The position numbers were made by a program, and so were the translations under genes. Below are positions 4,451 to 60,430 of a stretch of 64,000 nt of DNA, one piece after another (the first letter of the stretch is position 1; the number at the start of each line of letters is the position of its first letter). The notes beneath the pieces were generated by a model. The model searched no databases, was not told the DNA's origin, and saw only the letters and a program-made list of their open reading frames with translations. The stretch comes from an uncultured Candidatus Saccharibacteria bacterium (lineage in GTDB: Bacteria > Patescibacteriota > Minisyncoccia > 2-02-FULL-40-12 > GWA2-44-9): the NCBI GenBank assembly GCA_964444955.1, contig CAYUJB010000002.1, positions 972-64,971 on the forward strand, in the 5' to 3' direction.

Positions 4451-4768
4451 ATGCCGACATTCGCTGTAATCAAAACTGGAGGGAAGCAATACATTGTCCG
4501 CAAGGGCGATGTGGTGACCATCGAAAAGCTGGTTCACGATGGCAAAAAGGTCTCATTCGACCAGGTGCTTTTGATTGCCGATGAGAAGAAAGCAACTATC
4601 GGACAGCCGGTTATCAAAGGAGCCACCGTCTCTGCTTCGGTGCTCGAGGATGGCAAGGGCGAGAAAAAGATGGTCTTTCGCTACAAGGCCAAGACCCGCT
4701 CGAAGAAGAAGAAAGGTCATCGCCAGCCCTTCACGAAGGTGAAAATCGACTCCATCTCTGCCAAGTAA
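4451..4768 (+). CDS. rplU: 50S ribosomal protein L21
   Basis: MPTFAVIKTGGKQYIVRKGDVV... is the canonical L21 N-terminus. Own promoter TTGACA-17-TAGGAT at 4409-4437. Confidence 0.9.
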   Translation: MPTFAVIKTGGKQYIVRKGDVVTIEKLVHDGKKVSFDQVLLIADEKKATIGQPVIKGATVSASVLEDGKGEKKMVFRYKAKTRSKKKKGHRQPFTKVKIDSISAK

Positions 4769-4769
4769 A

Positions 4770-4795
4770 AAGAGCCCATCCGGGCTCTTTTGGTT
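4770..4795 (+). terminator. Rho-independent terminator after rplU
   Basis: GAGCCCATCCGGGCTC hairpin followed by TTTTGG. Confidence 0.7.
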
Positions 4796-4796
4796 A

Positions 4797-5283
4797 TTGA
4801 TGTTCCGCTCCCTTTCCCACTCTCCGACTCGTCAGTTCGCACAATGAGTGACAGCCTGTCCGCATCACAGGCGAAGCATCCGAATCTCCGCATTCCATCC
4901 CGCCTCTGGCGGGATGTCGGTGCTCCGGTCATGCGGATGCTCGCCGATGCGGACTACGACTGTCATCTGATATGTACTCACCCGCTGTACTATGACTCGC
5001 TTGGAGAGTGGGGAAGAGTCGCGTCGCATACACCCACCAACAAGTCGATGCGCATTCTTTTGGCTTAGGTATATCCTTTTTGAGCGACGGGTACCCGTGA
5101 CATCAATTGGCATAGTATGCGGGTTCGCACATATACAGCGACATTCGTTATCCAGGTCGCAGATAGCCGCATGACCGGAGCATAAAGCCGTAGGCGCCTG
5201 CGGAGATTCGGATATCGTATACCTGGATAGAATGTCGTTCGAATGCGAACTGACAAGTGAAGTTATGGGTAAACGGAGCGAGA
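4797..5283. repeat. Noncoding structured/repeat element, copy 1 (paralog of 60048-60430); candidate large ncRNA or MITE-like element
   Basis: No credible ORF. Three nested perfect long-range inverted pairs: 4831-4841/5244-5254 (11 bp), 4878-4892/5199-5213 (15 bp) and 4921-4936/5167-5182 (16 bp). Local hairpin CCCGCC-TCT-GGCGGG. Blocks 4871-4896 and 4915-4944 are 100% identical to the reverse complement of 60336-60361 and 60279-60308. Confidence 0.6.
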
Positions 5284-5883
5284 TTACTTCCTACTCTCCA
5301 GTGCATGCCGGAGCGTTATCTCGTCGGCGTATTCTAGGTGTGTGCCAGTGGCGAGGCCGCGGGCGAGACGGGTGGTGCGGATGCCGGGCGCTTTGTGAAA
5401 CAGGTCGCGCAGGTACATCGCCGTCATCTCGCCACTGGAGGTAGGATTGGTGGCGAGTACCAGCTCCACCGTGCCGGCCTGCTGAGCGATACGGTCCACG
5501 CGTTCGGCCAGCTCGCGAATACGAAGATGTTCGGGCCCAACGTTGTTGACTGGTGCTATCGAGCCGCCTAAGACATGGTAGAGGCCTTTCCAGAGACCTG
5601 AGCGCTCGACTGATTGGAGATCGGTGATCATCTCGACCACCATAATTGCCTTGGGGTCGCGTCGAGTGTCTCGGCACACAGTACAGAGTGTATCGTCGGA
5701 GACATTGAAGCACTCGGGACACTTGCGAACACGAGTCTTGAGCTCGCGAATGGCATTGCCGAGATCATCAAGTTCAGACTGGGGCTTATCTAAGAGTGCG
5801 AGCACCATACGGGAAGCAGCCCGCGGTCCAACACCGGGCAATTTTTGAAGGAGCTTGGCGATTGCAGCGAATACAGGGTCCAT
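5284..5883 (-). CDS. recR: Recombination protein RecR
   Basis: HhH motif, C4 zinc finger CPECFNVSDDTLCTVC and a Toprim region, all typical of RecR. Confidence 0.9.
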   Translation of the reverse strand: MDPVFAAIAKLLQKLPGVGPRAASRMVLALLDKPQSELDDLGNAIRELKTRVRKCPECFNVSDDTLCTVCRDTRRDPKAIMVVEMITDLQSVERSGLWKGLYHVLGGSIAPVNNVGPEHLRIRELAERVDRIAQQAGTVELVLATNPTSSGEMTAMYLRDLFHKAPGIRTTRLARGLATGTHLEYADEITLRHALESRK

Positions 5884-12149: not shown

Positions 12150-13228
12150 ACACTCTGACGAAATATCTTGTCACTGTGCTTAGCATTGTTGCAGTGATTT
12201 GGTTGGTTGAGCGGTTCGTGCCAGCGACGACTTCGCTCGGTGAACGGGTAGCCAGTGATATCCCTGCATCTTCTGTGCAGCCAGCTCTCGAGAAAGAAGG
12301 GAAATATCCACGCGCTCAGGAATTCGTAAAGCCGGGGGAATTCATCAATGCTGAACCTTTCACGCTCGCCTCGCTGATTGGCAAAAAAGTGATTATTGTC
12401 GATTTCTGGACATACTCGTGCATTAATTGCCAGCGCACCCAACCCTACCTCAACGCATGGTATGAGAAATACAAAGACCAAGGGTTGGAAATTGTGGGCG
12501 TACATACCCCTGAATTCGATTTTGAAAAAGTAGCTGATAATGTGCGCGCTGCAGTGAAGCGGGAGGGGATTGTGTATCCGGTGGTGCAGGACAACGAATT
12601 CGGTACGTGGCGAGCATACCAAAACCAGTATTGGCCTCACAAATACCTTATCGATACCGATGGCTATATTGTCTACGATCAAGTCGGCGAAGGTGGTTAT
12701 GAAGAATTTGAAACACACGTTCAGCGGGCGCTCGCCGAACATATGGCTCGCGCGGGTGCTGGTGGCGAGGTGGCGAGTGGAACAGTGCGACCCGGTGATA
12801 TACAAGCCGTTGATTTTAGCAAGATTAAAACACCCGAAATATACCTTGGTGTATTTCGGAATGCACAGTATCTGGGTAATGGGACACCCAGCATCACGGG
12901 CACGCAAACGCTGAGTATGCCCGCTTCAAACACGCAGAAAAAGAACCTCGTGTACCTTGGTGGAACGTGGGAATTCTCTGATCAAGCGGTTCGCTGTGTA
13001 CGTGATTGCGTAGTGCGACTCGCGTACTCCGCACGGCAGGCCAATATTGTTGCAGGTTCACCAACCTCGCAGAGCATACGCGTCCGGCTTGATGGCAAGG
13101 ACGTGCAATCCGTCACCGTTCGAGCAGATACGCTCTATCACGTGATTGACCAGAATACCTACGGTGAACACACGCTCGAGCTTACGGTGCCAACCGGGTT
13201 ATCGTTATTCACCTTTACCTTTAGTTAA
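12146..13228 (+). CDS. resA: TlpA/ResA-like thiol:disulfide oxidoreductase (thioredoxin fold, CxxC) with a C-terminal extension
   Basis: VIIVDFWTYSCINCQRTQPYLNAWYEKYKDQGLEIVGVHTPEFDFEK is classic for TlpA/ResA. N-terminal TM anchor. Confidence 0.75.
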   Translation: MNTLTKYLVTVLSIVAVIWLVERFVPATTSLGERVASDIPASSVQPALEKEGKYPRAQEFVKPGEFINAEPFTLASLIGKKVIIVDFWTYSCINCQRTQPYLNAWYEKYKDQGLEIVGVHTPEFDFEKVADNVRAAVKREGIVYPVVQDNEFGTWRAYQNQYWPHKYLIDTDGYIVYDQVGEGGYEEFETHVQRALAEHMARAGAGGEVASGTVRPGDIQAVDFSKIKTPEIYLGVFRNAQYLGNGTPSITGTQTLSMPASNTQKKNLVYLGGTWEFSDQAVRCVRDCVVRLAYSARQANIVAGSPTSQSIRVRLDGKDVQSVTVRADTLYHVIDQNTYGEHTLELTVPTGLSLFTFTFS

Positions 13229-13232
13229 AAAA

Positions 13233-13266
13233 TAAACCCCCGAGATTGCTCTCAGGGGTGGGGCGG
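13233..13266. terminator. Hairpin terminator, copy 1 of a duplicated 30-nt terminator sequence
   Basis: AAACCCCCGAGATTGCTCTCAGGGGTGGGG with an A/T run. A near-identical copy lies at 13878-13912. Confidence 0.6.
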
Positions 13267-13267
13267 T

Positions 13268-13807
13268 CTACTCGCGCTCGAAGTGAAGCTCGGGGCAAGC
13301 CACTCCATCAACGACGCGAACATTCTTGAAGTCGCGGCTCATGAGCTCAATCAGCTGATTGGTGGCAAATTCGCCACGAATGAAGAACGGAATCGGTTGT
13401 ACGAATTTGCGCTCAGTAGGTCCCGTTGCCGCGCTCACCTTCATCTTTTCCACGAATTTTATGACATTCGCTTCTTCGATGACGCGGGAATCGTCGTTCA
13501 TCACCCCACCCTTTCGACTGAGAACACTGCCGAGCAGCATGTAGAGCGCAATAGCGCTCTCTCGGCGGAGTGCTATTTCTGTTTGGTGGAAGCCATCTTG
13601 GAAGCGAACGTCGCCACTGAAGCGCGCTTTGCCTCCTTTAGTTCTGCATTTTTTCGCAAGTTCTGAATCTTCTGGATGGTTGATGTCGATTACGATATCG
13701 GATTTTACTCGACTCGCATGTTCCATAACCGCAAACAATCGACCATCAGCGAATGTAAATGCAGGCCCCTCCAAGTCGATGGGAATTCTGGTCTTCTTTT
13801 TGGACAC
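13268..13807 (-). CDS. Hypothetical protein (179 aa); the C-terminal domain is paralogous to the protein at 13915-14181
   Basis: C-terminus IPFFIRGEFATNQLIELMSRDFKNVRVVDGVACPELHFERE resembles IPFTLQGNDAAIQRAMFFLADEFSDFQVGEHCEVPELRFRRK. Confidence 0.5.
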   Translation of the reverse strand: MSKKKTRIPIDLEGPAFTFADGRLFAVMEHASRVKSDIVIDINHPEDSELAKKCRTKGGKARFSGDVRFQDGFHQTEIALRRESAIALYMLLGSVLSRKGGVMNDDSRVIEEANVIKFVEKMKVSAATGPTERKFVQPIPFFIRGEFATNQLIELMSRDFKNVRVVDGVACPELHFERE

Positions 13808-13877: not shown

Positions 13878-13912
13878 AAAAAACAAACCCCCGAGATTGC
13901 TCTCGGGGGTGG
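13878..13912. terminator. Hairpin terminator, copy 2 of the duplicated terminator sequence
   Basis: AAACCCCCGAGATTGCTCTCGGGGGTGGGG. Confidence 0.6.
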
Positions 13913-13914
13913 GG

Positions 13915-30729: not shown

Positions 30730-31008
30730 ATGGCACATACCAAAGCTATAGGCTCTACGCAGCTCGGACGAGACAGTCGCCCGCAGTATCGTGGAGTTAA
30801 AATTCATGATGGTCAGAAGGTCATTGTCGGCAACATTATCGTCCGCCAAACGGGCAGTACGGTAGTTGCGGGTGATGGCGTCCGCACCGGCTCTGATTAC
30901 ACCCTCTACGCCGTTCGCGACGGCATCGTTCGCTTTACCACCAAGAATAAGAACTCGTTTAATGGCTCGCGTCGAGCCGTCAAGATAGTTTCAGTCGTCG
31001 CGATGTAG
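30730..31008 (+). CDS. rpmA: 50S ribosomal protein L27
   Basis: MAHTKAIGSTQLGRDSRPQYRGVKIHDGQKV is the canonical L27 sequence. Confidence 0.9.
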   Translation: MAHTKAIGSTQLGRDSRPQYRGVKIHDGQKVIVGNIIVRQTGSTVVAGDGVRTGSDYTLYAVRDGIVRFTTKNKNSFNGSRRAVKIVSVVAM

Positions 31009-37266: not shown

Positions 37267-39239
37267 GCGATGTCGTCGATACTGTGAAGCATACGCTTCG
37301 CGTGTGCCTCCCAAGTATACCGCGAGACTATGGATTGGGATGCATGGATAATTGCTTGGCGCTGCTGCGTGTCGGCGAGGCCACGCTCCAATGCCGCTGC
37401 AAGTGATACCGGTGAAGCATCGGGAGTATAAAATGCGTGATCGCCAAAGATTTCTCGATGCACTGGCGTGTCCATCAGTACTGACGGTACACCATACGAG
37501 AGCGCTTCGAGCGGCGGGAGCCCGAACGCCTCCATATCGGATACGTACACAAAGAGTTTTGCACCTCGGTACGCTGCAGCAAGCTCCTCATCAGTAAGTC
37601 GCTCCGAACGTTTGATTGCTGTGCGACCAAGCTCGGCATTGGTGCGTGCAATAAGCTCATCAATCTGGGGCGGTTGGTACTTATCGGGTCCTACGGCGAG
37701 CAATGTCAGGATTGGGTGGTGGCGTGTAATCTGTCCGAAGGCAAGGATCGTCTCGCGGAGGTGACGACGTGGAAGCCCCTGTCCTACATAGAGAACATAC
37801 TCACCGGAACGCGCCGCTCCGGCGAGTGATGGCGCAACAGCGAGCTCGTTGACGAAAATGCGCTCCTTGCGGATACCAAACAACTTAGCAACGCGCTCTG
37901 CGGAGGCGTGCGTGATCGCCATGATACGAGTCGCTCGCGTTGCTGCCCAGGTGGCAAAAATGCCGTATGCCAATCGGTAGCGGATTGGTAAATCGTGGCC
38001 ACGAATTTCATGCCACACATCTTCGGTGAGCATCACGATGCTCTTGCCACGAAAAAGCAGCGGCAGCATATAATTGCTAATAATAGTGACCACGGGGCGA
38101 TCAATCCAGAGACGAATGGGAAAGAAAACAAAGAAATACAGCGAAAAAGAATTAGGCCACCATCGAAACGGCCGCACGAGTGTCGCCCGCACATTGGTGT
38201 GCGCTATCCATGGCTCGTCGGGAATGTGCGATTTAAAATATGCCACGACTTCATACTGCGCACGCACCTCGGGTAGCTGAGTAAATTCCGTAAGAAACCC
38301 CCGAATCTGTCGCGCCACACCCCATGATGCATCCTCGAGTGACTCGCACTCGATAGCAATGCTCGGTCGAGTGCGAATTCTTCCCATGCTACCCAGCACT
38401 CCATCTCGTATACCCGCTATGAGTGCACGGCTTTGGGCGTGTTCAAGTCCCAAAAAAAGCTTGATGACTTGCTTGAACGCAATCCATGCGAGCACCACTG
38501 GCAAAAGCACGCGCGCTGTCAGTGGCGCATGCGCACGATTGAAGTAGATTGCATTTCTGATGTGGTAGCGCAGTAAGATTGGTGAGCCCAGCGACGTGGT
38601 TGAGCGCGATACAGCGTGGTCAATTGTCGGGAATGCGAGGTGTACAATCGGAAATTGTGCACGCCGTGCGCGCAGCGAAAAATCGGCATCCTCGAAGTAG
38701 AGAAAGTAGGACTCATCAAGATAGCCGCTACGAGCAAATACTTCACGATGCACGATGAGTGCGGCTCCGATGACATACGTGGCATGCTCGCGGGATACCG
38801 GTCGATACAGGTGTGGTAGCGAGGTTGCGTTCCAGGTAATGCATCCCGCATAAGCAGTCTTGCCTCTCTCGTTGATTGGCACTCCCACCACTGCCGGCGG
38901 ATGCGACGTTAACTGTGAGCGTAAGTCTCCTACAAAAGAAGGCGTCACCGTCGTATCGTTGTTGATGAGTGCTACCCAGTCCGCGCCGTGTTCGAGCGCG
39001 CGCTTGATGCCCAGGTTATTGCCGCCAGAAAAACCGCGATTCTGGGGCGAGGAAATGACGGTGAGTACGCGGGTATAACTGGCCGTATATGCCATCAGCT
39101 GTTGTTGATATACAGGCTCGCTGTCATTGTCGATCACAATGCAGTCGAACTGATCGTCGGTTTGCGAGCGAAGTGAATCCAAAAACCGAATCGTGTCTTC
39201 GGTACTATTATAGTTGATGGTAACTAGCGTAAGTTTCAT
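37263..39239 (-). CDS. Two-domain glycosyltransferase (N-terminal GT2 fused to C-terminal GT4-like domain)
   Basis: N-terminus LVTINYNSTEDT...IVIDNDSEP (GT-A). C-terminus EAFGLPPLEALSYGVPSV (GT-B GT4 motif). Confidence 0.7.
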   Translation of the reverse strand: MKLTLVTINYNSTEDTIRFLDSLRSQTDDQFDCIVIDNDSEPVYQQQLMAYTASYTRVLTVISSPQNRGFSGGNNLGIKRALEHGADWVALINNDTTVTPSFVGDLRSQLTSHPPAVVGVPINERGKTAYAGCITWNATSLPHLYRPVSREHATYVIGAALIVHREVFARSGYLDESYFLYFEDADFSLRARRAQFPIVHLAFPTIDHAVSRSTTSLGSPILLRYHIRNAIYFNRAHAPLTARVLLPVVLAWIAFKQVIKLFLGLEHAQSRALIAGIRDGVLGSMGRIRTRPSIAIECESLEDASWGVARQIRGFLTEFTQLPEVRAQYEVVAYFKSHIPDEPWIAHTNVRATLVRPFRWWPNSFSLYFFVFFPIRLWIDRPVVTIISNYMLPLLFRGKSIVMLTEDVWHEIRGHDLPIRYRLAYGIFATWAATRATRIMAITHASAERVAKLFGIRKERIFVNELAVAPSLAGAARSGEYVLYVGQGLPRRHLRETILAFGQITRHHPILTLLAVGPDKYQPPQIDELIARTNAELGRTAIKRSERLTDEELAAAYRGAKLFVYVSDMEAFGLPPLEALSYGVPSVLMDTPVHREIFGDHAFYTPDASPVSLAAALERGLADTQQRQAIIHASQSIVSRYTWEAHAKRMLHSIDDIA

Positions 39240-40309
39240 GACGGTAACTCGACAATAGCCTTCATTCGTCGAGCAAATTGTTCTTCACCATACTGACTGG
39301 CATGGTTCGTTATGTGAGACGCGTCATATGAGGAAAGGCCAGCAGTGATACGCTTCACGCCATCCGCTATCGCCTCTGGAATAGCATCGTCAAAAAATTC
39401 GCCAGTGATTCCCTCAAGTACCGTCTCGGTCGCACCACCACGGCGAAGCGCGAGTACCGGCTTGCCATGCGACATCGCCTCAACTGCAGTAAGTCCCCAA
39501 TCCTCTTCATTGGGAACAATAAGCGCAGTGCAACGATCATAGAGACCATCAAGCTGAGCATCGGTAACGCGCCCGACAAATACGATATTTGTCTGTGAGC
39601 GCCGCTGTAGCTGTCGGAAAAGTGTACCCTCCCCAACAATGACCAGGCGGCAACGTAGCTTGGCGAATGCGTCGATAACTATCTCGAGATCTTTATGCGC
39701 GATGAGACGCCCAACCACAAGATAGTATGCATCGGCGGGGACGCGCGTATAGTCAGGCGTGGCGTGGGCTCGCATGGGTGGGGGTACGACGATAGATGAT
39801 CGATGATAGTACTTCGTGATACGTGCCGCGGTTGTGTTGGATATTGCCAGCAAATGATCAGGTCGTTGGGCGGCAGCGAGATCCCACGAGCGCAGAAGAT
39901 GCCGATAGACATGTGATAGTATGCCGGTGCGTTGGTAGCGATGCGCACGATCCCAAATACTGCGAGTGGGGCTATAGCAATAAGACAGATGCCGCGTGTC
40001 GGGTCGAACAATGATTCCTTTGGAAAAAACGACCGACGAAGAAATGACCGTATCAAACGCAGAAAAATCAAAGGTCTCTATTGCTGATGGCATGAGCGGC
40101 GCCAAGAGCGGATAGTACCGCCAAGCTCCCGGGAGACGCTGTAGTCGTGACGGTCGAATGGTCGCGTTCGGGAGGAGGCGACGAACTGTCTCTGGCTGGT
40201 ACAGTAGCGTGAAGATGGGCGCATCAGGCCACAACCGATGCAAACTTTGAAGAACGCGCTCCGCACCCCCCTCATATATAATCCAATCGTGAACGAGTGC
40301 TATACGCAT
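39236..40309 (-). CDS. Family 4 (GT-B) glycosyltransferase
   Basis: EDWGLTAVEAMSHGKPVLALRRGGATETV. Confidence 0.8.
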   Translation of the reverse strand: MRIALVHDWIIYEGGAERVLQSLHRLWPDAPIFTLLYQPETVRRLLPNATIRPSRLQRLPGAWRYYPLLAPLMPSAIETFDFSAFDTVISSSVVFSKGIIVRPDTRHLSYCYSPTRSIWDRAHRYQRTGILSHVYRHLLRSWDLAAAQRPDHLLAISNTTAARITKYYHRSSIVVPPPMRAHATPDYTRVPADAYYLVVGRLIAHKDLEIVIDAFAKLRCRLVIVGEGTLFRQLQRRSQTNIVFVGRVTDAQLDGLYDRCTALIVPNEEDWGLTAVEAMSHGKPVLALRRGGATETVLEGITGEFFDDAIPEAIADGVKRITAGLSSYDASHITNHASQYGEEQFARRMKAIVELPS

Positions 40310-51317: not shown

Positions 51318-54314
51318 TCATCGCTTTTCCATCAACGATCGTAGTGGACAGTAGGCGCAATCGGAATCTCCGCATCGTGCGTTCCAAAAAGCGAGCGATC
51401 GGATTTCTTCGGCAACACGTATAATTTCTGATTCCAGCGTGGCAACCGATTCCGGCGTGATATCGAATTTCTCGCGATGATACTTTCCGCGAAGATCCGG
51501 CTCGACAAAATCGATAACGCCTTCGCGCATACGGTATTTTCCGTCTTGGTAGCGATCTAGTAGAAGCTTATAGAAGGTAAGTTGCCGCAGGTAATTGCCG
51601 TCGCCGTCTTTCACATCGCCTGTGATTTGATTGCGCGATTTTGGCTTGCCTGTTTTGTAATCGACCACGAGTACCGCACCCGTGGCATCGAGGAGTTCGA
51701 CTTTGTCGATTTTACCGTTGATGAGAATGCCATTAGCAAGCTCCACTGCAGGAACTTTGAGCTGGTTGAAAATGTTGACATGCCACTCGGTGTGGTACTG
51801 ATCATAGTATCCCTGAAGCGCGGTGCGCCCGCGCGTAAGCGCCGCATCGAGATCTTGTTGCTGGAGCGGCTGATGTCGAATAAATGTCTCAAACAACTCG
51901 ACCAATGATTCGCGAGTTCCACGCTGTCCCTCTTTGAATCGATTGAAATACTCCTCTAGGGCGCGATCGACAGCATTTCCATACATCAGCGCGAAGGCAG
52001 GTGCTTCGGGTATGCGAATCAAATTAGTATAGAAGTATCGCCACGGACAGGTGAGATAATTATTGAGCGCAGTAACCGAGAGTCCGTGGTGATTGAAAAG
52101 TTCATTGAGATACTCGCGATCAGTCGCCTGCGGTATTTGCGCTGGCGCGGGTGCGTATCGCAGCGAGCTTTCGCGAAGCCAAGACTCCTCGAGCGCAGCA
52201 GTGTCGACGCGCAGCTGCACATCGGGACGTATATCCAAAAGGTAGGCAGTGGGAAGCTGCTCATTGCCGCGCTGATCACGCAGCGAATACGCGATCACGA
52301 CCTCTCGGCGCGCGCGGGTCAGCGCAACATAAAAAAGATTGCGTTCGTCGTCATCGAACGCGTCCGCTGCAAGCGTTGATTGCGTCTTCAGAAAGAGCGC
52401 CGGAGGAAGCTTGAGCAGTTCCCGTCGCTGTCGCTTCCCCCATCGCGCATCGATGGCATCGATGATGTAGACGTAATCAAATTCAAGCCCCTTGCTCTTG
52501 TGCGCGGTCATGACGCGTACACGTCCTGGCAACGGCATGCCGGTTACCGTCGATAGCGCGATGCCATGACTTCGCAAAAAATCGAGATGATCTGTAAATG
52601 CTGCAAGAGTGAGCGTGCGTTCGCGCTGCACACGCGAACGAATCATGTCGTATAGTGTGTGGAGACGATCGAGTGCATCAAGTGCATTCTCGTCACGCAT
52701 CATCTCCGCTAATAACCCCGATTCGCGCACGATCGCCTCAAGCGCAGCGGCTGCGGCAGGCTGTTGCGTTGCGGTTGCCCAGGAGCGAAGGAGTGCGGAT
52801 ACTTCCTGAAGACGCAGTGCACCATCGATCCCCGCTTCGTGCATCAAGGCAGTAGACCGTATCACGTCATAGGGGTTGCGCCCCGTTTTACAAAACACTG
52901 TGAGCTTGTAGACATCGAGCGGGTCGACTCCCAACGCGGGTGCGTGCAGTGCAATCAACAGTGGCCCCGCACTACCGTAGTTGCGGAGTGCATCGAGTAT
53001 GCGCACCAATTGATGGAGATACGGATCGGAAAAGATATCTTGCTGGGTGGAAAGCGTGAATGGAATTGCAAGCTTACGTAAAAACTCAGATACCGCAACT
53101 GCATCGCTGTTGTCGCGCGCAAGCACCGCAATTGACTCGGGACGCGCGCCCGCAGCAAGTCGATCCTGAATGTGTCGCGCCACACTCCAGTACTGAACGT
53201 CGGGCGAGCTGAGTGCCATTACGCTAACAGGAGTATCTGCGTGGCCGGATCGCGCTGCCAACGCCCCACCAGCACTTGAACGCACCCCTTCGGCAGCGGT
53301 AAGGATGAGCTGGCTGGAACGATAGTTGTCTTCGAGCGTGATCAGCTTCACTGAGGGGTAGAGTTTTTGAAAGTAGTGAAAATTCTCCAGTGACGCTCCT
53401 TGAAAACGATAGATGGCTTGCTTCTCATCGCCGACCACAAAGAGATTGGGAGTTTCCCAAAAACGCGCCAAGAGTTCTACGATGCGATTTTGAGTATTGT
53501 TGGTATCTTGGTGCTCATCAACCAGAATGTACTGATGCTGCTCTTGTAATATGAGCCGGAGCGTCTCGTCGGTTTCGAGAACACGCGCCACCTCCATAAT
53601 CATGTCGTTGTAATCAAACAGACGTTGCGCGCGCAGAGTAGATTGATACTGCGTATACACGAGTGCGAGCTCTCGGAGCTTTTTGGCCTGCTTCAGACGC
53701 TCTTCGTACACACCCTTTACCTTTCCTTTATGCGGACCTTTTTCATGCTCGAGATCCTCGGCGCTCATGACAGCACGCTCCTCGCGTTGGGCATAGGCAA
53801 CAAGCGCATCGGCGGTGACACCCTCGCGTTTGAGCGTGGATACGGCGTGAATAAGAACCCTGAGATAGAGATCCGGAGCGTTGACCGGCCGCAAGTATTC
53901 GAAAAGGTTTGCGGGATCATTGATACGCTCTTGGAGCATCACCGCTTGATCGTCATCTGAAATAAGTGTCGCGCCCGCCAGTGCACCCAGCGACTCAGGG
54001 TAGTCTCGGATAATGCCATTGCAAAACGAATGAAACGTCGTAATCATGACGCGATACGCGTCGGTGCCAATGATGGCAGCCAACCGAGCGCGCATCTCGG
54101 AAGCGCCCGATTCGGTAAATGTAAGGGCTAAAATCGCCTCGGGAGGCGTATCGGTCGCCGTGAGAATTTTGGCGATACGAAGGGTGAGAATATTGGTCTT
54201 ACCCGTGCCTGGGCCAGCAACCACCATGACAGGGCCGTCGATGGCATCGACCGCCTCTTTTTGGCGAGGATTGAGTGCCGCGTAGAGTCTAGTAAATTCG
54301 TTCGTCATTTTCAC
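51318..54314 (-). CDS. UvrD/PcrA-like superfamily-1 helicase fused to C-terminal PD-(D/E)XK (RecB-type) nuclease domain (AddA-like)
   Basis: Walker A GPGTGKTN and UvrD motifs. C-terminus VLVVDYKTGKPKS (DYK nuclease motif) plus CGDSDCAYCP Cys cluster. Confidence 0.8.
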   Translation of the reverse strand: MKMTNEFTRLYAALNPRQKEAVDAIDGPVMVVAGPGTGKTNILTLRIAKILTATDTPPEAILALTFTESGASEMRARLAAIIGTDAYRVMITTFHSFCNGIIRDYPESLGALAGATLISDDDQAVMLQERINDPANLFEYLRPVNAPDLYLRVLIHAVSTLKREGVTADALVAYAQREERAVMSAEDLEHEKGPHKGKVKGVYEERLKQAKKLRELALVYTQYQSTLRAQRLFDYNDMIMEVARVLETDETLRLILQEQHQYILVDEHQDTNNTQNRIVELLARFWETPNLFVVGDEKQAIYRFQGASLENFHYFQKLYPSVKLITLEDNYRSSQLILTAAEGVRSSAGGALAARSGHADTPVSVMALSSPDVQYWSVARHIQDRLAAGARPESIAVLARDNSDAVAVSEFLRKLAIPFTLSTQQDIFSDPYLHQLVRILDALRNYGSAGPLLIALHAPALGVDPLDVYKLTVFCKTGRNPYDVIRSTALMHEAGIDGALRLQEVSALLRSWATATQQPAAAAALEAIVRESGLLAEMMRDENALDALDRLHTLYDMIRSRVQRERTLTLAAFTDHLDFLRSHGIALSTVTGMPLPGRVRVMTAHKSKGLEFDYVYIIDAIDARWGKRQRRELLKLPPALFLKTQSTLAADAFDDDERNLFYVALTRARREVVIAYSLRDQRGNEQLPTAYLLDIRPDVQLRVDTAALEESWLRESSLRYAPAPAQIPQATDREYLNELFNHHGLSVTALNNYLTCPWRYFYTNLIRIPEAPAFALMYGNAVDRALEEYFNRFKEGQRGTRESLVELFETFIRHQPLQQQDLDAALTRGRTALQGYYDQYHTEWHVNIFNQLKVPAVELANGILINGKIDKVELLDATGAVLVVDYKTGKPKSRNQITGDVKDGDGNYLRQLTFYKLLLDRYQDGKYRMREGVIDFVEPDLRGKYHREKFDITPESVATLESEIIRVAEEIRSLAFWNARCGDSDCAYCPLRSLMEKR

Positions 54315-59198: not shown

Positions 59199-60047
59199 CT
59201 ACTTTCCCAGCCAACGGGTGAAGATGCCTGTCGAGAGTAGACGACCACTCCGTTGCTGGAGACACAGCTGTCCGGCTTCCAGCTTCCCCGCGCGACCCTT
59301 AAGTGTGTCTTCGAGGAGATTGTGGATGGCGAGCTCAGAGGTATTGGTGGCGTACGCGTTGATGATGAGAAATTTTGCCTGCGGTGATAGGAGCGTCACA
59401 CAATCGCGCACCAACGCTGGCATTTGTTCGTTGAACTTCCAAATCTTTCCGGTCGGTGAATGTCCAAACGCGGGTGGGTCCATCACAATTCCCTCGTACT
59501 GAGCCCCCCGCTTCACTTCATTTTTTACAAACTTTGCAGCATCTTCGAGCATCCAACGGATAGAATCGACGGGAAGCTTGTTGAGATCTTGGTTTTCTTT
59601 CGCCCATCCAATCGCAGGTCGTGATGCGTCGACATGCGTGACGAATGAACCACGAATCGTCAGCCATGCCGTAGCCGCGCCTGTGTACGCAAAGAGATTG
59701 AGCACACGTGGTTTCTCCAGTCCCGCGAGCGCATCAGACATGAGCTTCCAGTGGGCTGCCTGCTCGGGGAAAACACCTGTGTGCTTAAAGTTCATAGGAC
59801 GTACTCGTAGCTTCATATCGTGAAACGCCATGTCCCACGATTCAGGAAGGGTTGTGCGCATCTGCCAGGCATCATCGCGAAAAATAGCATCTGCACCATC
59901 CCAGATTTCTTTGGGTTCACTGCGCGCCCAAATGGTCTGCGGATCGGGTCGCGCCAATACAAACTCGCCCCATCGCTCGAGGCGATACCCATCGCCCGAA
60001 TCGAGGAGCTGAAAATCGGAAAACTCTTTCGCACCATCCATGTACAT
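59199..60047 (-). CDS. Class I SAM-dependent rRNA (m5C) methyltransferase, RlmI/YccW-like
   Basis: LNLFAYTGAATAWL (SAM motif I) and DPPAFG motifs. The upstream 68 codons of the six-frame ORF fall in the repeat element and are Arg/Cys-rich, so the start is set at MYMDGAKE. Confidence 0.75.
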   Translation of the reverse strand: MYMDGAKEFSDFQLLDSGDGYRLERWGEFVLARPDPQTIWARSEPKEIWDGADAIFRDDAWQMRTTLPESWDMAFHDMKLRVRPMNFKHTGVFPEQAAHWKLMSDALAGLEKPRVLNLFAYTGAATAWLTIRGSFVTHVDASRPAIGWAKENQDLNKLPVDSIRWMLEDAAKFVKNEVKRGAQYEGIVMDPPAFGHSPTGKIWKFNEQMPALVRDCVTLLSPQAKFLIINAYATNTSELAIHNLLEDTLKGRAGKLEAGQLCLQQRSGRLLSTGIFTRWLGK

Positions 60048-60430
60048 AGCCCCTATACTACACGAGTACTTCCACCGACGCCACACTTCCAAATTCCGGC
60101 CGCTTCGGCACCCGCATCGGTCTCGCACACGCCTGCCTGCCGGCAGGCAGGGATGATGCCTTCGCCGATATCGGGTGCCTGCGCTGACATGGACCCGCTT
60201 GAGCGAGTCTTCCTCGTTTCCCAGCGAGCCATAGCATGCGACTTCGCACATGATAAGTCGCAGTCGTCGCCCGTAGCAGCGAGCATCCGCATGACCGGAG
60301 CACCGACAACGGCTAAGAAGGCCATCTTAGCCGTTGGAATGCGGAGATTCGGATGCTTCGCTTGCTGCGGGCAGACTGCAGCACCAATGCGAAGTGGCGA
60401 GTCGGGGAACGGGGAAGAGAGCGAGAGGCT
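60048..60430. repeat. Noncoding structured/repeat element, copy 2 (inverted, shorter paralog of 4797-5283)
   Basis: 60279-60308 and 60336-60361 are exact reverse complements of 4915-4944 and 4871-4896. The flanking sequence is about 70% identical to copy 1 read on the opposite strand. The variable hairpin ACGGCTAAG-N8-CTTAGCCGT replaces CCCGCC-TCT-GGCGGG. Confidence 0.6.

What the first reader, a model, noticed from the sequence alone, without database searches (positions are those of the whole stretch)
4797..5283. Paralogous noncoding element with three nested perfect long-range helices, located where rpmA would normally follow rplU
The 487 nt between the rplU terminator and the recR stop has no credible ORF. 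It carries an internal inverted duplication that produces three perfectly complementary arm pairs in nested order, with asymmetric spacers and a hairpin-forming spacer between the second and third blocks. The pairs are 4831-4841 with 5244-5254 (11 bp), 4878-4892 with 5199-5213 (15 bp) and 4921-4936 with 5167-5182 (16 bp). A second, inverted copy of the element lies at 60048-60430. Background identity between the two copies is only about 70%, yet two blocks are 100% identical: 26 nt GCGAAGCATCCGAATCTCCGCATTCC and 30 nt TGTCGGTGCTCCGGTCATGCGGATGCTCGC. The hairpin between the blocks has been replaced by a different hairpin in copy 2 (CCCGCC-TCT-GGCGGG versus ACGGCTAAG-N8-CTTAGCCGT), which is a compensatory, structure-preserving change. 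This pattern, conserved blocks flanking a variable hairpin, fits either a family of structured RNAs or a MITE-like mobile element with composite terminal inverted repeats. Copy 2 lacks the partner arm, so the blocks are conserved for more than intramolecular pairing. In a gene-dense, small-genome context, two such elements of around 400 nt are conspicuous.
Basis: seen in the sequence. Interest (0 to 1): 0.8.

Follow-up and report, generated by a model that had tools for sequence, protein, structure and literature searches.

The report
Mobile hairpin repeat, two inverted copies
The odd 487-base gap between rplU and recR is two head-to-head-inverted copies of a previously undescribed, roughly 215-base hairpin-forming repeat that has inserted itself at many intergenic sites in a small group of Patescibacteria (CPR) genomes; it is a new family of a familiar kind of small mobile DNA, although a function as RNA is not ruled out.

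Summary
The three nested helices are not one fold. They arise because the spacer holds two convergent copies (4807-5020 +, 5062-5283 -) of one ~215-nt module, M1, and the arm pairs are M1's invariant core blocks. A third copy lies at 60184-60428 (-).

M1 is an end-to-end imperfect hairpin. It has an invariant asymmetric internal loop, a hypervariable perfect tip hairpin and stems that covary. I found 35 distinct copies in five Patescibacteria MAGs and several metagenomes, and no Rfam match.

Relatives with 80-92% identical flanking proteins have empty sites at both window loci, so every window copy is an insertion. rpmA lies 26 kb away and never follows rplU in this lineage.

Arm mismatches show no G·U excess (85 versus 93 A·C). 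No reading frame is conserved and no promoter was found. Other conserved modules (M2-M6) follow M1 in mosaic fashion.

Best reading: a new family of MITE/ERIC/BOX-like mosaic palindromic repeats. How it moves is unknown. A host-functional structured RNA remains possible (~0.25).

The parts
4768..4791 (.). Native bidirectional intrinsic terminator shared by rplU and recR (AAAAGAGCCC-ATCC-GGGCTCTTTT). It marks one edge of the insertion and is not part of the element.
   Evidence: (I8). The same hairpin sits directly between the recR and rplU stops in relatives L056 and L059.
4794..5283 (.). Inserted block of about 490 nt, absent from relatives. It holds two M1 copies tail to tail, with their 5' ends pointing outwards.
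   Evidence: Empty sites in L055, L056, L057, L059 and L060, compared with the window sequence.
4807..5020 (+). M1 copy 1L, a rod-like hairpin. The closing helix is 4812-4825 with 5003-5016. The covariance-model hit runs 4807-5044 and includes the 3' tail.
   Evidence: Model R1: 166 bits, E = 7e-49. Closing helix (I5). Fold z = -6.75.
5062..5283 (-). M1 copy 1R, the most divergent of the three. It begins immediately after the recR stop codon.
   Evidence: Model R1: 150 bits, E = 4e-44. Alignment. Its own local hairpin is 5149-5180/5198-5229 (I1).
60184..60428 (-). M1 copy 2. It begins 0-2 nt after the TAG stop of the M3 peptidase gene.
   Evidence: Model R1: 177 bits, E = 4e-52. Sequence.
60085..60183 (-). 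Short form of a second module, M2, directly 3' of copy 2. It starts GTCAGCGCAG and ends CCGAAGCGG.
   Evidence: Alignment with the M2 of L012, L021, L046, L036 and L005. The empty-site comparison puts the end of the insertion near 60085.
4878..4892 (+). Invariant core block A (ATCCGAATCTCCGCA). The other copies are at 5199-5213 (-) and 60340-60354 (-).
   Evidence: It contains the first half of the search pattern (CGAATCTCCGC), so invariance at those bases is an ascertainment effect. Positions just outside the pattern are also invariant.
4921..4936 (+). Invariant core block B (TGCTCCGGTCATGCGG). The other copies are at 5167-5182 (-) and 60287-60302 (-).
   Evidence: alignments.
4897..4915 (+). 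Variable tip hairpin of copy 1L (ATCCCGCC-TCT-GGCGGGAT). The equivalents are 5187-5195 in 1R (3 bp plus a triloop) and 60308-60335 in copy 2.
   Evidence: Tips differ wholesale between otherwise ~88% identical copies.
60131..60152 (.). Perfect 20-nt palindrome CCTGCCTGCCGGCAGGCAGG nested inside the M2 part of copy 2. It is a separate small insertion, also found inside M1 copies elsewhere.

Best explanation
The region holds members of a new family of small, non-coding, hairpin-forming interspersed repeats. The head module, M1, is about 215-235 nt. It is often followed by one of several other conserved modules, M2 to M6.

Shown:
- M1 is multi-copy. With intact cores it has 8 copies in one MAG, 5 in another and 3 in this 64-kb window.
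- It is confined to a narrow clade of Patescibacteria.
- It has no conserved ORF on either strand.
- It folds end to end into an imperfect hairpin kept by compensatory changes.
- It is present or absent at orthologous intergenic sites.
- At rplU/recR, two diverged members landed tail to tail between the recR stop codon and the shared terminator. That creates the three 'nested helices'.

Inferred:
- It spreads as DNA and is mobilised in trans.
- The invariant, asymmetric internal loop is CAUCCG-AAUCU-CCGCA opposite UGC(UCC)GG-UCAUG-CGGAUG, and it is only brought together in the folded single strand. I take it to be the recognition site of the mobilising protein, which would be a single-strand hairpin-binding transposase or recombinase rather than a double-strand TIR binder.
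- The tip is a hot spot for turnover of perfect palindromes.
- Once inserted, the element is co-transcribed with its neighbours as a long RNA hairpin in 3' UTRs or within operons. That may alter mRNA processing or stability, as it does for ERIC, Correia and BOX elements.
For: Family and copy number: 17 genome loci in 5 MAGs and 31 metagenome stretches found with a core pattern. After removing duplicates and 2 chance hits, 35 distinct copies remain. There are exactly 3 copies in the window.

Insertion polymorphism:
- In relatives with RecR 86-92% identical, the recR stop is 18-33 nt from the rplU stop.
- In relatives with the methyltransferase 80-83% identical, the peptidase-methyltransferase spacer is 17-63 nt, against 388 nt in the window.
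- One of those relatives (Ga0163150_10000025) carries M1 at other sites.
- Sites differ between genomes that keep gene order (L002 versus L008).

The two copies in the spacer are only ~60% identical, so they are not a local duplication.

Structure: 91.8% of cells are paired, against 32-42% when the partners are slid. There are 215 double-change cells, against 68 in shuffles.

DNA-like rather than RNA-like signature: opposing-arm transitions give 85 G·U against 93 A·C. The 'antisense' strand folds better in 29 of 35 copies.

No promoter-like site lies in the elements.

Mosaic build: M2-M6 occur only directly 3' of M1, and the same M2 subtype sits next to different M1 subtypes.

Nested palindrome insertions occur inside copies.

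Literature: MITE-like repeats fold into long stem-loops, sit at the 3' ends of genes and are co-transcribed. BOX elements are modular (PMC3184786, PMC3049150).
Against: No transposase or parent IS was found next to any copy.

A target-site duplication could not be established. There is a possible TAA at the recR site, and the second site is ambiguous.

The conservation pattern is the reverse of a classical MITE. The centre is invariant, while the terminal helix covaries and differs between subfamilies.

Copies within a genome are old (61-92% identical) yet all keep the core and the pairing. This could equally mean host-level selection on each copy.

Two positions appear to be shared between two MAGs: downstream of a 240-aa gene and upstream of leuS, and upstream of a 190-208-aa gene. 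That fits either retention or hot spots.

Orientation is biased about 2:1 towards the sense of the upstream gene.

Core invariance is partly an ascertainment effect, because the search pattern required 22-24 of those bases.
Confidence: 0.6

Rival explanations
1. M1 is a host-functional structured RNA. It would be either a cis-acting 3'-UTR/operon element or a family of sibling small RNAs. The invariant internal loop would bind a protein, ligand or RNA, and the copies would be kept by selection. The insertions would be how a useful RNA module is distributed.
For: Covariation is very strong, with invariant unpaired nucleotides. The three window copies are 61-72% identical overall yet identical in the core. 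The tip is a variable, always-paired hairpin, as in many riboswitches and ribozymes. In 22 of 35 copies the 5' end lies 3-38 nt after the stop of a co-oriented gene, so read-through transcription is likely. M2 has a multi-hairpin architecture.
Against: There is no G·U over A·C excess (85 versus 93). The opposite strand folds better in 29 of 35 copies. No promoter or U-tract terminator was found. About one third of copies in tandem spacers are antisense to both neighbours. Flanking genes are unrelated housekeeping genes. There is clear presence/absence among close relatives. Two copies sit where there is no downstream gene. No Rfam family matches.
Confidence: 0.25
2. The M1 centre is a folded single-strand recombination site, analogous to an integron attC or the CTX-phage attP hairpin. 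On this view P4 is the R-box analogue, the 5x5 loop is the unpaired central spacer, P5 with its 3-nt bulge is the L-box with extrahelical bases, and the tip is the variable terminal structure. A tyrosine recombinase would use it to move or shuffle adjacent DNA.
For: The core architecture matches the attC layout point for point. Spacing between the two cores varies from 16 to 37 nt, so only the folded form brings them together. Several copies lie in the same orientation on one contig in CAYHIK.
Against: The R'/R'' consensus (GTTRRRY/RYYYAAC) is absent. There are no arrays of short promoterless cassettes. The genes between copies are housekeeping genes such as leuS, recR and dnaB. No integrase was seen in the flanks examined. 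The element extends about 70 nt beyond the core on each side, with its own conserved features.
Confidence: 0.08
3. The spacer is a lineage-specific junk inverted duplication created in place.
For: The region folds as one giant hairpin.
Against: The two arms are only ~60% identical outside the cores, and each is closer to copies in other genomes. The same module occurs singly at more than 30 other loci.
Confidence: 0.02
4. One of the overlapping ORFs (for example 4790-5068 +, 92 aa) encodes a small protein.
For: ORFs of 82-92 aa overlap the element on both strands.
Against: Indels of 2, 9 and 14 nt separate the copies. The invariant core is read in different frames in different members, and one antisense frame stops after 4 codons in copy 1L (sequence). 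Substitutions are compensatory for pairing, not synonymous.
Confidence: 0.01

Closest known systems
MITE-like intergenic repeats of bacteria (ERIC/IRU of Enterobacteriaceae, Correia/CREE of Neisseria, RUP of pneumococcus)
   Same: Non-coding, 100-400 bp and multi-copy. The whole element is an imperfect palindrome that folds into a long stem-loop. It lies mostly at the 3' ends of genes or inside operons, and is present or absent at orthologous sites (PMC3184786; here).
   Different: There is no sequence similarity to them. The termini covary and differ between subfamilies, while the centre is invariant. TA/TSD flanks are not demonstrated. There is a hypervariable perfect tip hairpin. The host phylum is different (Patescibacteria). 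No parent IS is known.
Mosaic repeats: pneumococcal/S. suis BOX elements (boxA-boxB(n)-boxC) and E. coli BIMEs
   Same: It is a composite of distinct conserved modules in fixed order. Here M1 is the head, followed by M2, M3, M4, M5 or M6, and modules are exchangeable between subtypes. Its length ranges from about 215 to about 450 nt, and it has predicted RNA stem-loops (PMC3049150; here).
   Different: The modules are much larger, about 100-230 nt against 45-50 nt. There is no tandem amplification of a middle module and no sequence relationship to BOX or BIME.
REPINs (REP doublets forming hairpins) mobilised by RAYT transposases
   Same: Two conserved ~20-nt sequences in inverted orientation are separated by a variable spacer. 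They act only as a hairpin, are intergenic and multi-copy, and would be mobilised in trans by a single-copy enzyme (PMC3116915, listed).
   Different: The individual cores are not themselves palindromic REP units. The element is three times longer, with further conserved features. No RAYT gene has been identified.
Integron attC sites / CTX attP folded single-strand sites
   Same: The centre has a similar layout: a paired box, an unpaired central spacer, a second box with extrahelical bases, and a variable terminal structure.
   Different: There is no R'/R'' consensus, no cassette array and no adjacent integrase. The resemblance is from my own knowledge of attC architecture, and only the sequence motif was tested.

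Membership tests
MITE (miniature inverted-repeat transposable element) | Small (<~400 bp), non-coding, multi-copy | tested here: met
   215-450 nt with no conserved frame. 35 distinct copies overall and 3 in the window.
MITE (miniature inverted-repeat transposable element) | Terminal inverted repeats | tested here: met
   The terminal helix P1 reaches the ends, for example CCCCGCCGC...GCGGCGGGG, and 4812-4825/5003-5016 in the window. The repeat sequence is not conserved between subfamilies.
MITE (miniature inverted-repeat transposable element) | Target-site duplication flanking the insertion | tested here: inconclusive
   The recR site has TAA at both junctions. The peptidase site is ambiguous. 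The empty sites available are 8-20% diverged.
MITE (miniature inverted-repeat transposable element) | Evidence of mobility (filled versus empty orthologous sites) | tested here: met
   Both window loci are empty in relatives.
MITE (miniature inverted-repeat transposable element) | Cognate transposase or parent IS sharing the ends | not tested
   None was seen in the ~4-kb flanks of the copies.
REP/REPIN-RAYT | Each unit is a 20-35-nt imperfect palindrome, and a RAYT gene is present in the genome | tested here: not met
   Core blocks A and B are not self-complementary (sequence). The presence of RAYT was not testable.
Integron attC | R''/R' core sites RYYYAAC...GTTRRRY, and arrays of cassettes next to intI | tested here: not met
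   The core is CATCCG.../...CGGATG. Copies are dispersed among housekeeping genes.
Any Rfam 15 RNA family | Covariance-model score at or above the gathering threshold | tested here: not met
   Only tRNAs reach threshold in the window and in 8 loci. The best sub-threshold hits score 14-15 bits with E = 0.8-7.
Structured functional RNA (generic) | Compensatory base-pair changes that keep helices | tested here: met
   23 of 32 pairs have double changes, and no shuffle out of 500 reaches the observed score.
Structured functional RNA (generic) | Strand-specific signature (G·U tolerated, A·C avoided) and a defined transcript | tested here: not met
   G·U 85 against A·C 93. No promoter was found. Transcripts are not testable with these tools.
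Small protein gene | Reading frame conserved between copies | tested here: not met
   Frame-breaking indels are present and the core is read in different frames.

The most novel reading that the evidence does not exclude
M1 is not mere selfish DNA. It would be the conserved scaffold of a new class of mobile structured RNA in Patescibacteria. The scaffold is a ~215-nt rod whose invariant asymmetric internal loop is a catalytic, ligand-binding or protein-binding centre. It is fused to interchangeable structured 3' domains (M2-M6) and carries a rapidly exchanged tip hairpin. Hosts with ~1-Mb genomes would retain it because the RNA does something for them or for a partner enzyme.
Probability: 0.2. 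Interest if true: 0.75.

Novelty: new member of a known kind. Interest (0 to 1): 0.45.

Why it matters
Patescibacteria have tiny, gene-dense genomes and are usually described as poor in mobile DNA. A repeat family that occupies up to ~0.5 kb per site therefore stands out. It carries a 45-nt core that stays identical while its stems are rewritten by compensatory changes, and it is assembled from exchangeable modules.

It gives a concrete handle on two things: how small non-autonomous elements move in these organisms, through a folded single-strand recognition site, and how they reshape 3' UTRs and operons. Here recR acquires a ~480-nt hairpin 3' UTR, and a peptidase-methyltransferase operon is split by 371 nt.

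Practically, the family can break assemblies and mislead annotation, because spurious ORFs of 80-900 aa start inside it. It would also make a useful strain marker.

Tried and rejected
- Rfam at gathering threshold on the window and 8 loci, and at E <= 10 on two elements: only tRNAs and noise.
- Coding potential on both strands: rejected. Frames are not conserved, and one antisense frame stops after 4 codons.
- The antisense strand carries a conserved GGAG-N6-ATG. I considered it as a start site and rejected it for the same reason.
- tRNA/tmRNA scan: nothing in the elements.
- A possible fourth copy at 51360 (1 mismatch to block A): it lies inside a gene, has no partner block, and the covariance model finds nothing there.
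- Viral contigs, phage records and plasmid records: no match.
- Intrinsic-terminator role for the tip hairpin: rejected, because only 2-3 U follow it and copy 2 sits inside an operon.
- 6S RNA, riboswitch leader, T-box, bridge RNA/omega RNA, retron ncRNA and DGR template were considered from memory. I set them aside because of copy number, the lack of an adjacent enzyme gene, unrelated flanking genes and insertion into a 3'-3' spacer.
- A shared 3'-terminal motif CGGAATTTGGA: found in only two elements, so probably chance.
- Target-site duplication and an exact 3' boundary: unresolved.
- Literature searches for such repeats or RNAs in Saccharibacteria/Patescibacteria returned nothing relevant.

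Full report
**Observation**

The 487 nt between rplU and recR are non-coding. rplU runs 4451-4768 (+) and matches Pfam L21p. recR runs 5284-5883 (-).

The repeat finder reproduces the three nested arm pairs:
- 4921-4936 with 5167-5182, 16 nt, 100% complementary.
- 4878-4892 with 5199-5213, 15 nt, 100%.
- 4827-4841 with 5244-5258, 15 nt, 93%.

The whole spacer folds as one giant hairpin far below shuffled controls, with z = -10.4 on the + strand and -12.8 on the - strand. The 26-nt and 30-nt blocks each occur exactly twice in the window, at 4871-4896/60336-60361 and 4915-4944/60279-60308, with none expected by chance. The two copies are 72% identical overall.

**What the spacer really contains**

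I aligned the left arm, the reverse complement of the right arm, and copy 2. The right arm is itself a third, more divergent copy of the same module. I call this module M1. A covariance model built from family members finds exactly three copies in the 64 kb:
- 4807-5044 (+), 166 bits.
- 5062-5278 (-), 150 bits.
- 60184-60422 (-), 177 bits.

The three perfect long-range helices are therefore the three most conserved blocks of M1. They are GTCAGTTCGCA, ATCCGAATCTCCGCA and TGCTCCGGTCATGCGG. They pair only because two copies lie in opposite orientation. Each copy also folds on its own. Copy 1L closes with 4812-4825/5003-5016 (I5, z = -6.75). Copy 1R has its own stem at 5149-5180/5198-5229 (I1).

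**The family**

I scanned one genome per GTDB species with the pattern CGAATCTCCGC-N12-42-CTCCGGTCATGCG. It gave 17 loci in five MAGs labelled Saccharibacteria, Yanofskybacteria or Patescibacteria: 8 in JBBTQV, 5 in CAYHIK, and 2, 2 and 1 in the others. A metagenome scan gave 31 more stretches, and viral contigs gave none. After removing duplicates and two chance hits, 35 distinct copies remain.

No Rfam 15 family matches, either at the gathering threshold or meaningfully at E <= 10. Phage and plasmid collections have nothing similar. Four literature searches found no description.

**Anatomy**

M1 is an end-to-end imperfect hairpin of about 215-235 nt. From the outside in, it consists of:
- A terminal helix P1, with a pyrimidine-rich 5' strand and a purine-rich 3' strand.
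- A second helix joining the 5' TTCGCA region to a 3' TGCGAA region.
- Helices P2 and P3.
- P4, CATCCG paired with CGGATG.
- An invariant 5x5 internal loop, AATCT opposite TCATG.
- P5, CCGCA paired with TGC(TCC)GG, which carries a 3-nt bulge.
- A tip hairpin.

The 3' arm carries an extra 15-20-nt bulge with consensus TGnCTCnCTGG.

On the model-based alignment, 91.8% of cells form standard pairs, against 32-42% when partners are slid by 1-3 columns. 23 of 32 pairs show double changes. There are 215 double-change cells against 68 in shuffles, and 0 of 500 shuffles reach that value.

The tip ranges from a 3-bp stem with a triloop to 14-bp perfect hairpins. It differs wholesale between copies that are otherwise about 88% identical. 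The same tip palindrome also turns up in different M1 backgrounds (L037 and L041).

**No coding**

Copies differ by indels of 2, 9 and 14 nt. The invariant core is read in different frames in different members, and one antisense frame ends after four codons in copy 1L. Long ORFs that start inside elements, such as an 820-aa ORF in L003 and a 906-aa ORF in L016, are read-through artefacts.

**Insertions, not ancient residents**

Relatives whose RecR is 92%, 89% and 86% identical keep the local gene order but have only 18-33 nt between the recR and rplU stops. These are L059, L056, L055, L057 and L060. The spacer there is essentially the shared bidirectional terminator. The model finds no M1 in those loci.

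In the window, about 490 nt lie between the recR TAA and that same terminator. The two copies in this block are only about 60% identical, and each is closer to copies in other genomes. So two already-diverged members arrived there. An in-place inverted duplication is excluded.

Copy 2 is also an insertion. The M3 peptidase and the SAM methyltransferase are 17, 36 or 63 nt apart in relatives with 80-83% identical methyltransferase (L063, L062, L064). In the window they are 388 nt apart, and the insert begins right after the peptidase stop. L062 comes from a contig that carries M1 at three other places. Insertion sites also differ between genomes that keep gene order (L002 versus L008).

rpmA is at 30730-31008 (+) in this window. 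It follows rplU in none of the relatives, so no gene is missing.

**More modules**

Directly 3' of M1, in the same orientation, several loci carry other conserved structured sequences:
- M2 is about 210 nt, starts GTCCGTCAGCGCAG and ends CGGAGCGG. It occurs in L012, L021, L046, L036 and L005, and as a short form at window 60085-60183.
- M3 occurs in L004, L014 and L022.
- M4 occurs in L008, L009 and L016.
- M5 occurs in L011 and L016.
- M6 occurs in L018 and L037.

The same M2 subtype follows different M1 subtypes, so the elements are mosaics. M2's 3' end (GGTGGCGGAGCGG) resembles the 3' strand of M1's terminal helix.

A perfect 20-nt palindrome, CCTGCCTGCCGGCAGGCAGG, is nested in several elements at different positions. 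One sits at window 60131-60152.

**DNA or RNA?**

For each copy I aligned the left arm against the reverse complement of the right arm. Transitions give 85 G·U-type and 93 A·C-type oppositions. Functional RNAs normally tolerate G·U and avoid A·C, so this symmetry is what a DNA-level palindrome would show.

The strand opposite to the one I call sense has the lower RNA folding energy in 29 of 35 copies, by 6.3 kcal/mol on average. No sigma-70-like promoter lies in the window elements. The only terminator-like sites found are the native rplU/recR terminator and a hairpin at 59965-59985 inside the methyltransferase gene.

Orientation is only mildly biased. In spacers between tandem genes there are about 14 sense and 7 antisense copies. 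In 22 of 35 copies the 5' end lies 3-38 nt after the stop of a co-oriented gene.

Against a classical double-strand TIR mechanism, the two core blocks are not reverse complements of each other. Only about 13 of 20 positions agree and the differences are invariant. Their spacing also varies from 16 to 37 nt. Whatever reads the core must therefore read the folded single strand.

**Interpretation**

The best-supported account is a new family of mosaic, palindromic, non-autonomous interspersed repeats. They are of the MITE/ERIC/Correia/BOX kind, whose members fold into long stem-loops, sit at the 3' ends of genes and are co-transcribed (PMC3184786; PMC3049150).

Several steps are shown: multi-copy, non-coding, hairpin maintained by compensatory change, presence/absence at orthologous sites, and modular build. 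Other steps are inferred: mobilisation in trans through the folded core, palindrome turnover at the tip, and effects on neighbouring mRNAs. In the window, recR gains a ~480-nt hairpin 3' UTR and an operon is split by 371 nt.

Some features do not fit a textbook MITE:
- The centre is invariant while the ends covary.
- There is no proven target duplication.
- There is no known transposase.
- Copies within a genome are old (61-92% identical) yet intact.
- Two positions look shared between two MAGs.

These keep a host-functional structured RNA alive as a rival, at about 0.25. An attC-like recombination-site reading gets about 0.08.

One caveat applies throughout. The invariance of 22-24 core bases is partly imposed by the search pattern.

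**Verdict**

The nested-helix architecture and the rpmA remark are artefacts of context. The family itself appears undescribed: a new member of a known kind, and of moderate interest.

Noticed in passing
window 60131-60152; L019 625-642 and 3415-3432; L042 5034-5051; variants in L029, L033, L035: A perfect 20-nt palindrome, CCTGCCTGCCGGCAGGCAGG, appears as a clean insertion at different positions inside M1 or M2 copies. One such site is between G and G of ATGCG|GATG. It also occurs once outside them. It looks like a separate tiny palindromic mobile or self-generated sequence.
   Followed up: partly
L012 2520-2760, L021 670-915 (-), L046 1236-1480, L036 860-1100, L005 2112-2360; window 60085-60183 (-): Module M2 is a ~210-nt conserved multi-hairpin sequence that always lies directly 3' of M1 and ends with the invariant CGGAGCGG. 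The window has a short form that lacks the central long hairpin. There is no Rfam match.
   Followed up: partly
L004/L014/L022 (M3), L008/L009/L016 (M4), L011/L016 (M5), L018/L037 (M6), all just 3' of M1: Four further conserved non-coding modules of 70-150 nt are shared between different genomes. In the loci fetched they occur only downstream of M1. In L046, a fragment of another M1 subtype's 3' end follows M2, which suggests nested insertion.
   Followed up: partly
window 30730-31008 (+): rpmA (L27, MAHTKAIGSTQLGRDS...) lies 26 kb from rplU. rplU is followed by convergent recR in all relatives examined, so the usual rplU-rpmA pairing is absent in this lineage.
   Followed up: yes
window 13227-13263 and 13878-13914: A 37-nt direct repeat, 95% identical and terminator-like (AAAAAATAAACCCCCGAGATTGCTCTCAGGGGTGGGG), flanks a single 179-aa gene on the minus strand (13268-13807).
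   Followed up: no
window ~38000-40000: Cumulative GC skew rises up to about 39 kb and then falls. This suggests a change of replication direction inside the window, possibly the terminus.
   Followed up: no
antisense strand of every M1 copy, e.g. window 4875-4892 (-) and 60340-60357 (+): The reverse complement of core block A reads GGAG-ATTCGG-ATG, a canonical Shine-Dalgarno sequence plus start codon. It opens no conserved ORF. It could create spurious translation starts when the element is transcribed antisense, which might explain the mild orientation bias.
   Followed up: partly
L015 573-812 / L016 5353-5568; L005 1876-2115 / L007 2293-2507: Two MAGs (JBBTQV, CAYHIK) carry M1 at what look like the same two gene positions: between a ~240-aa gene and leuS, and upstream of a ~190-208-aa gene. 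Yet each copy resembles the other copies of its own genome. This points to either insertion hot spots or concerted evolution.
   Followed up: partly
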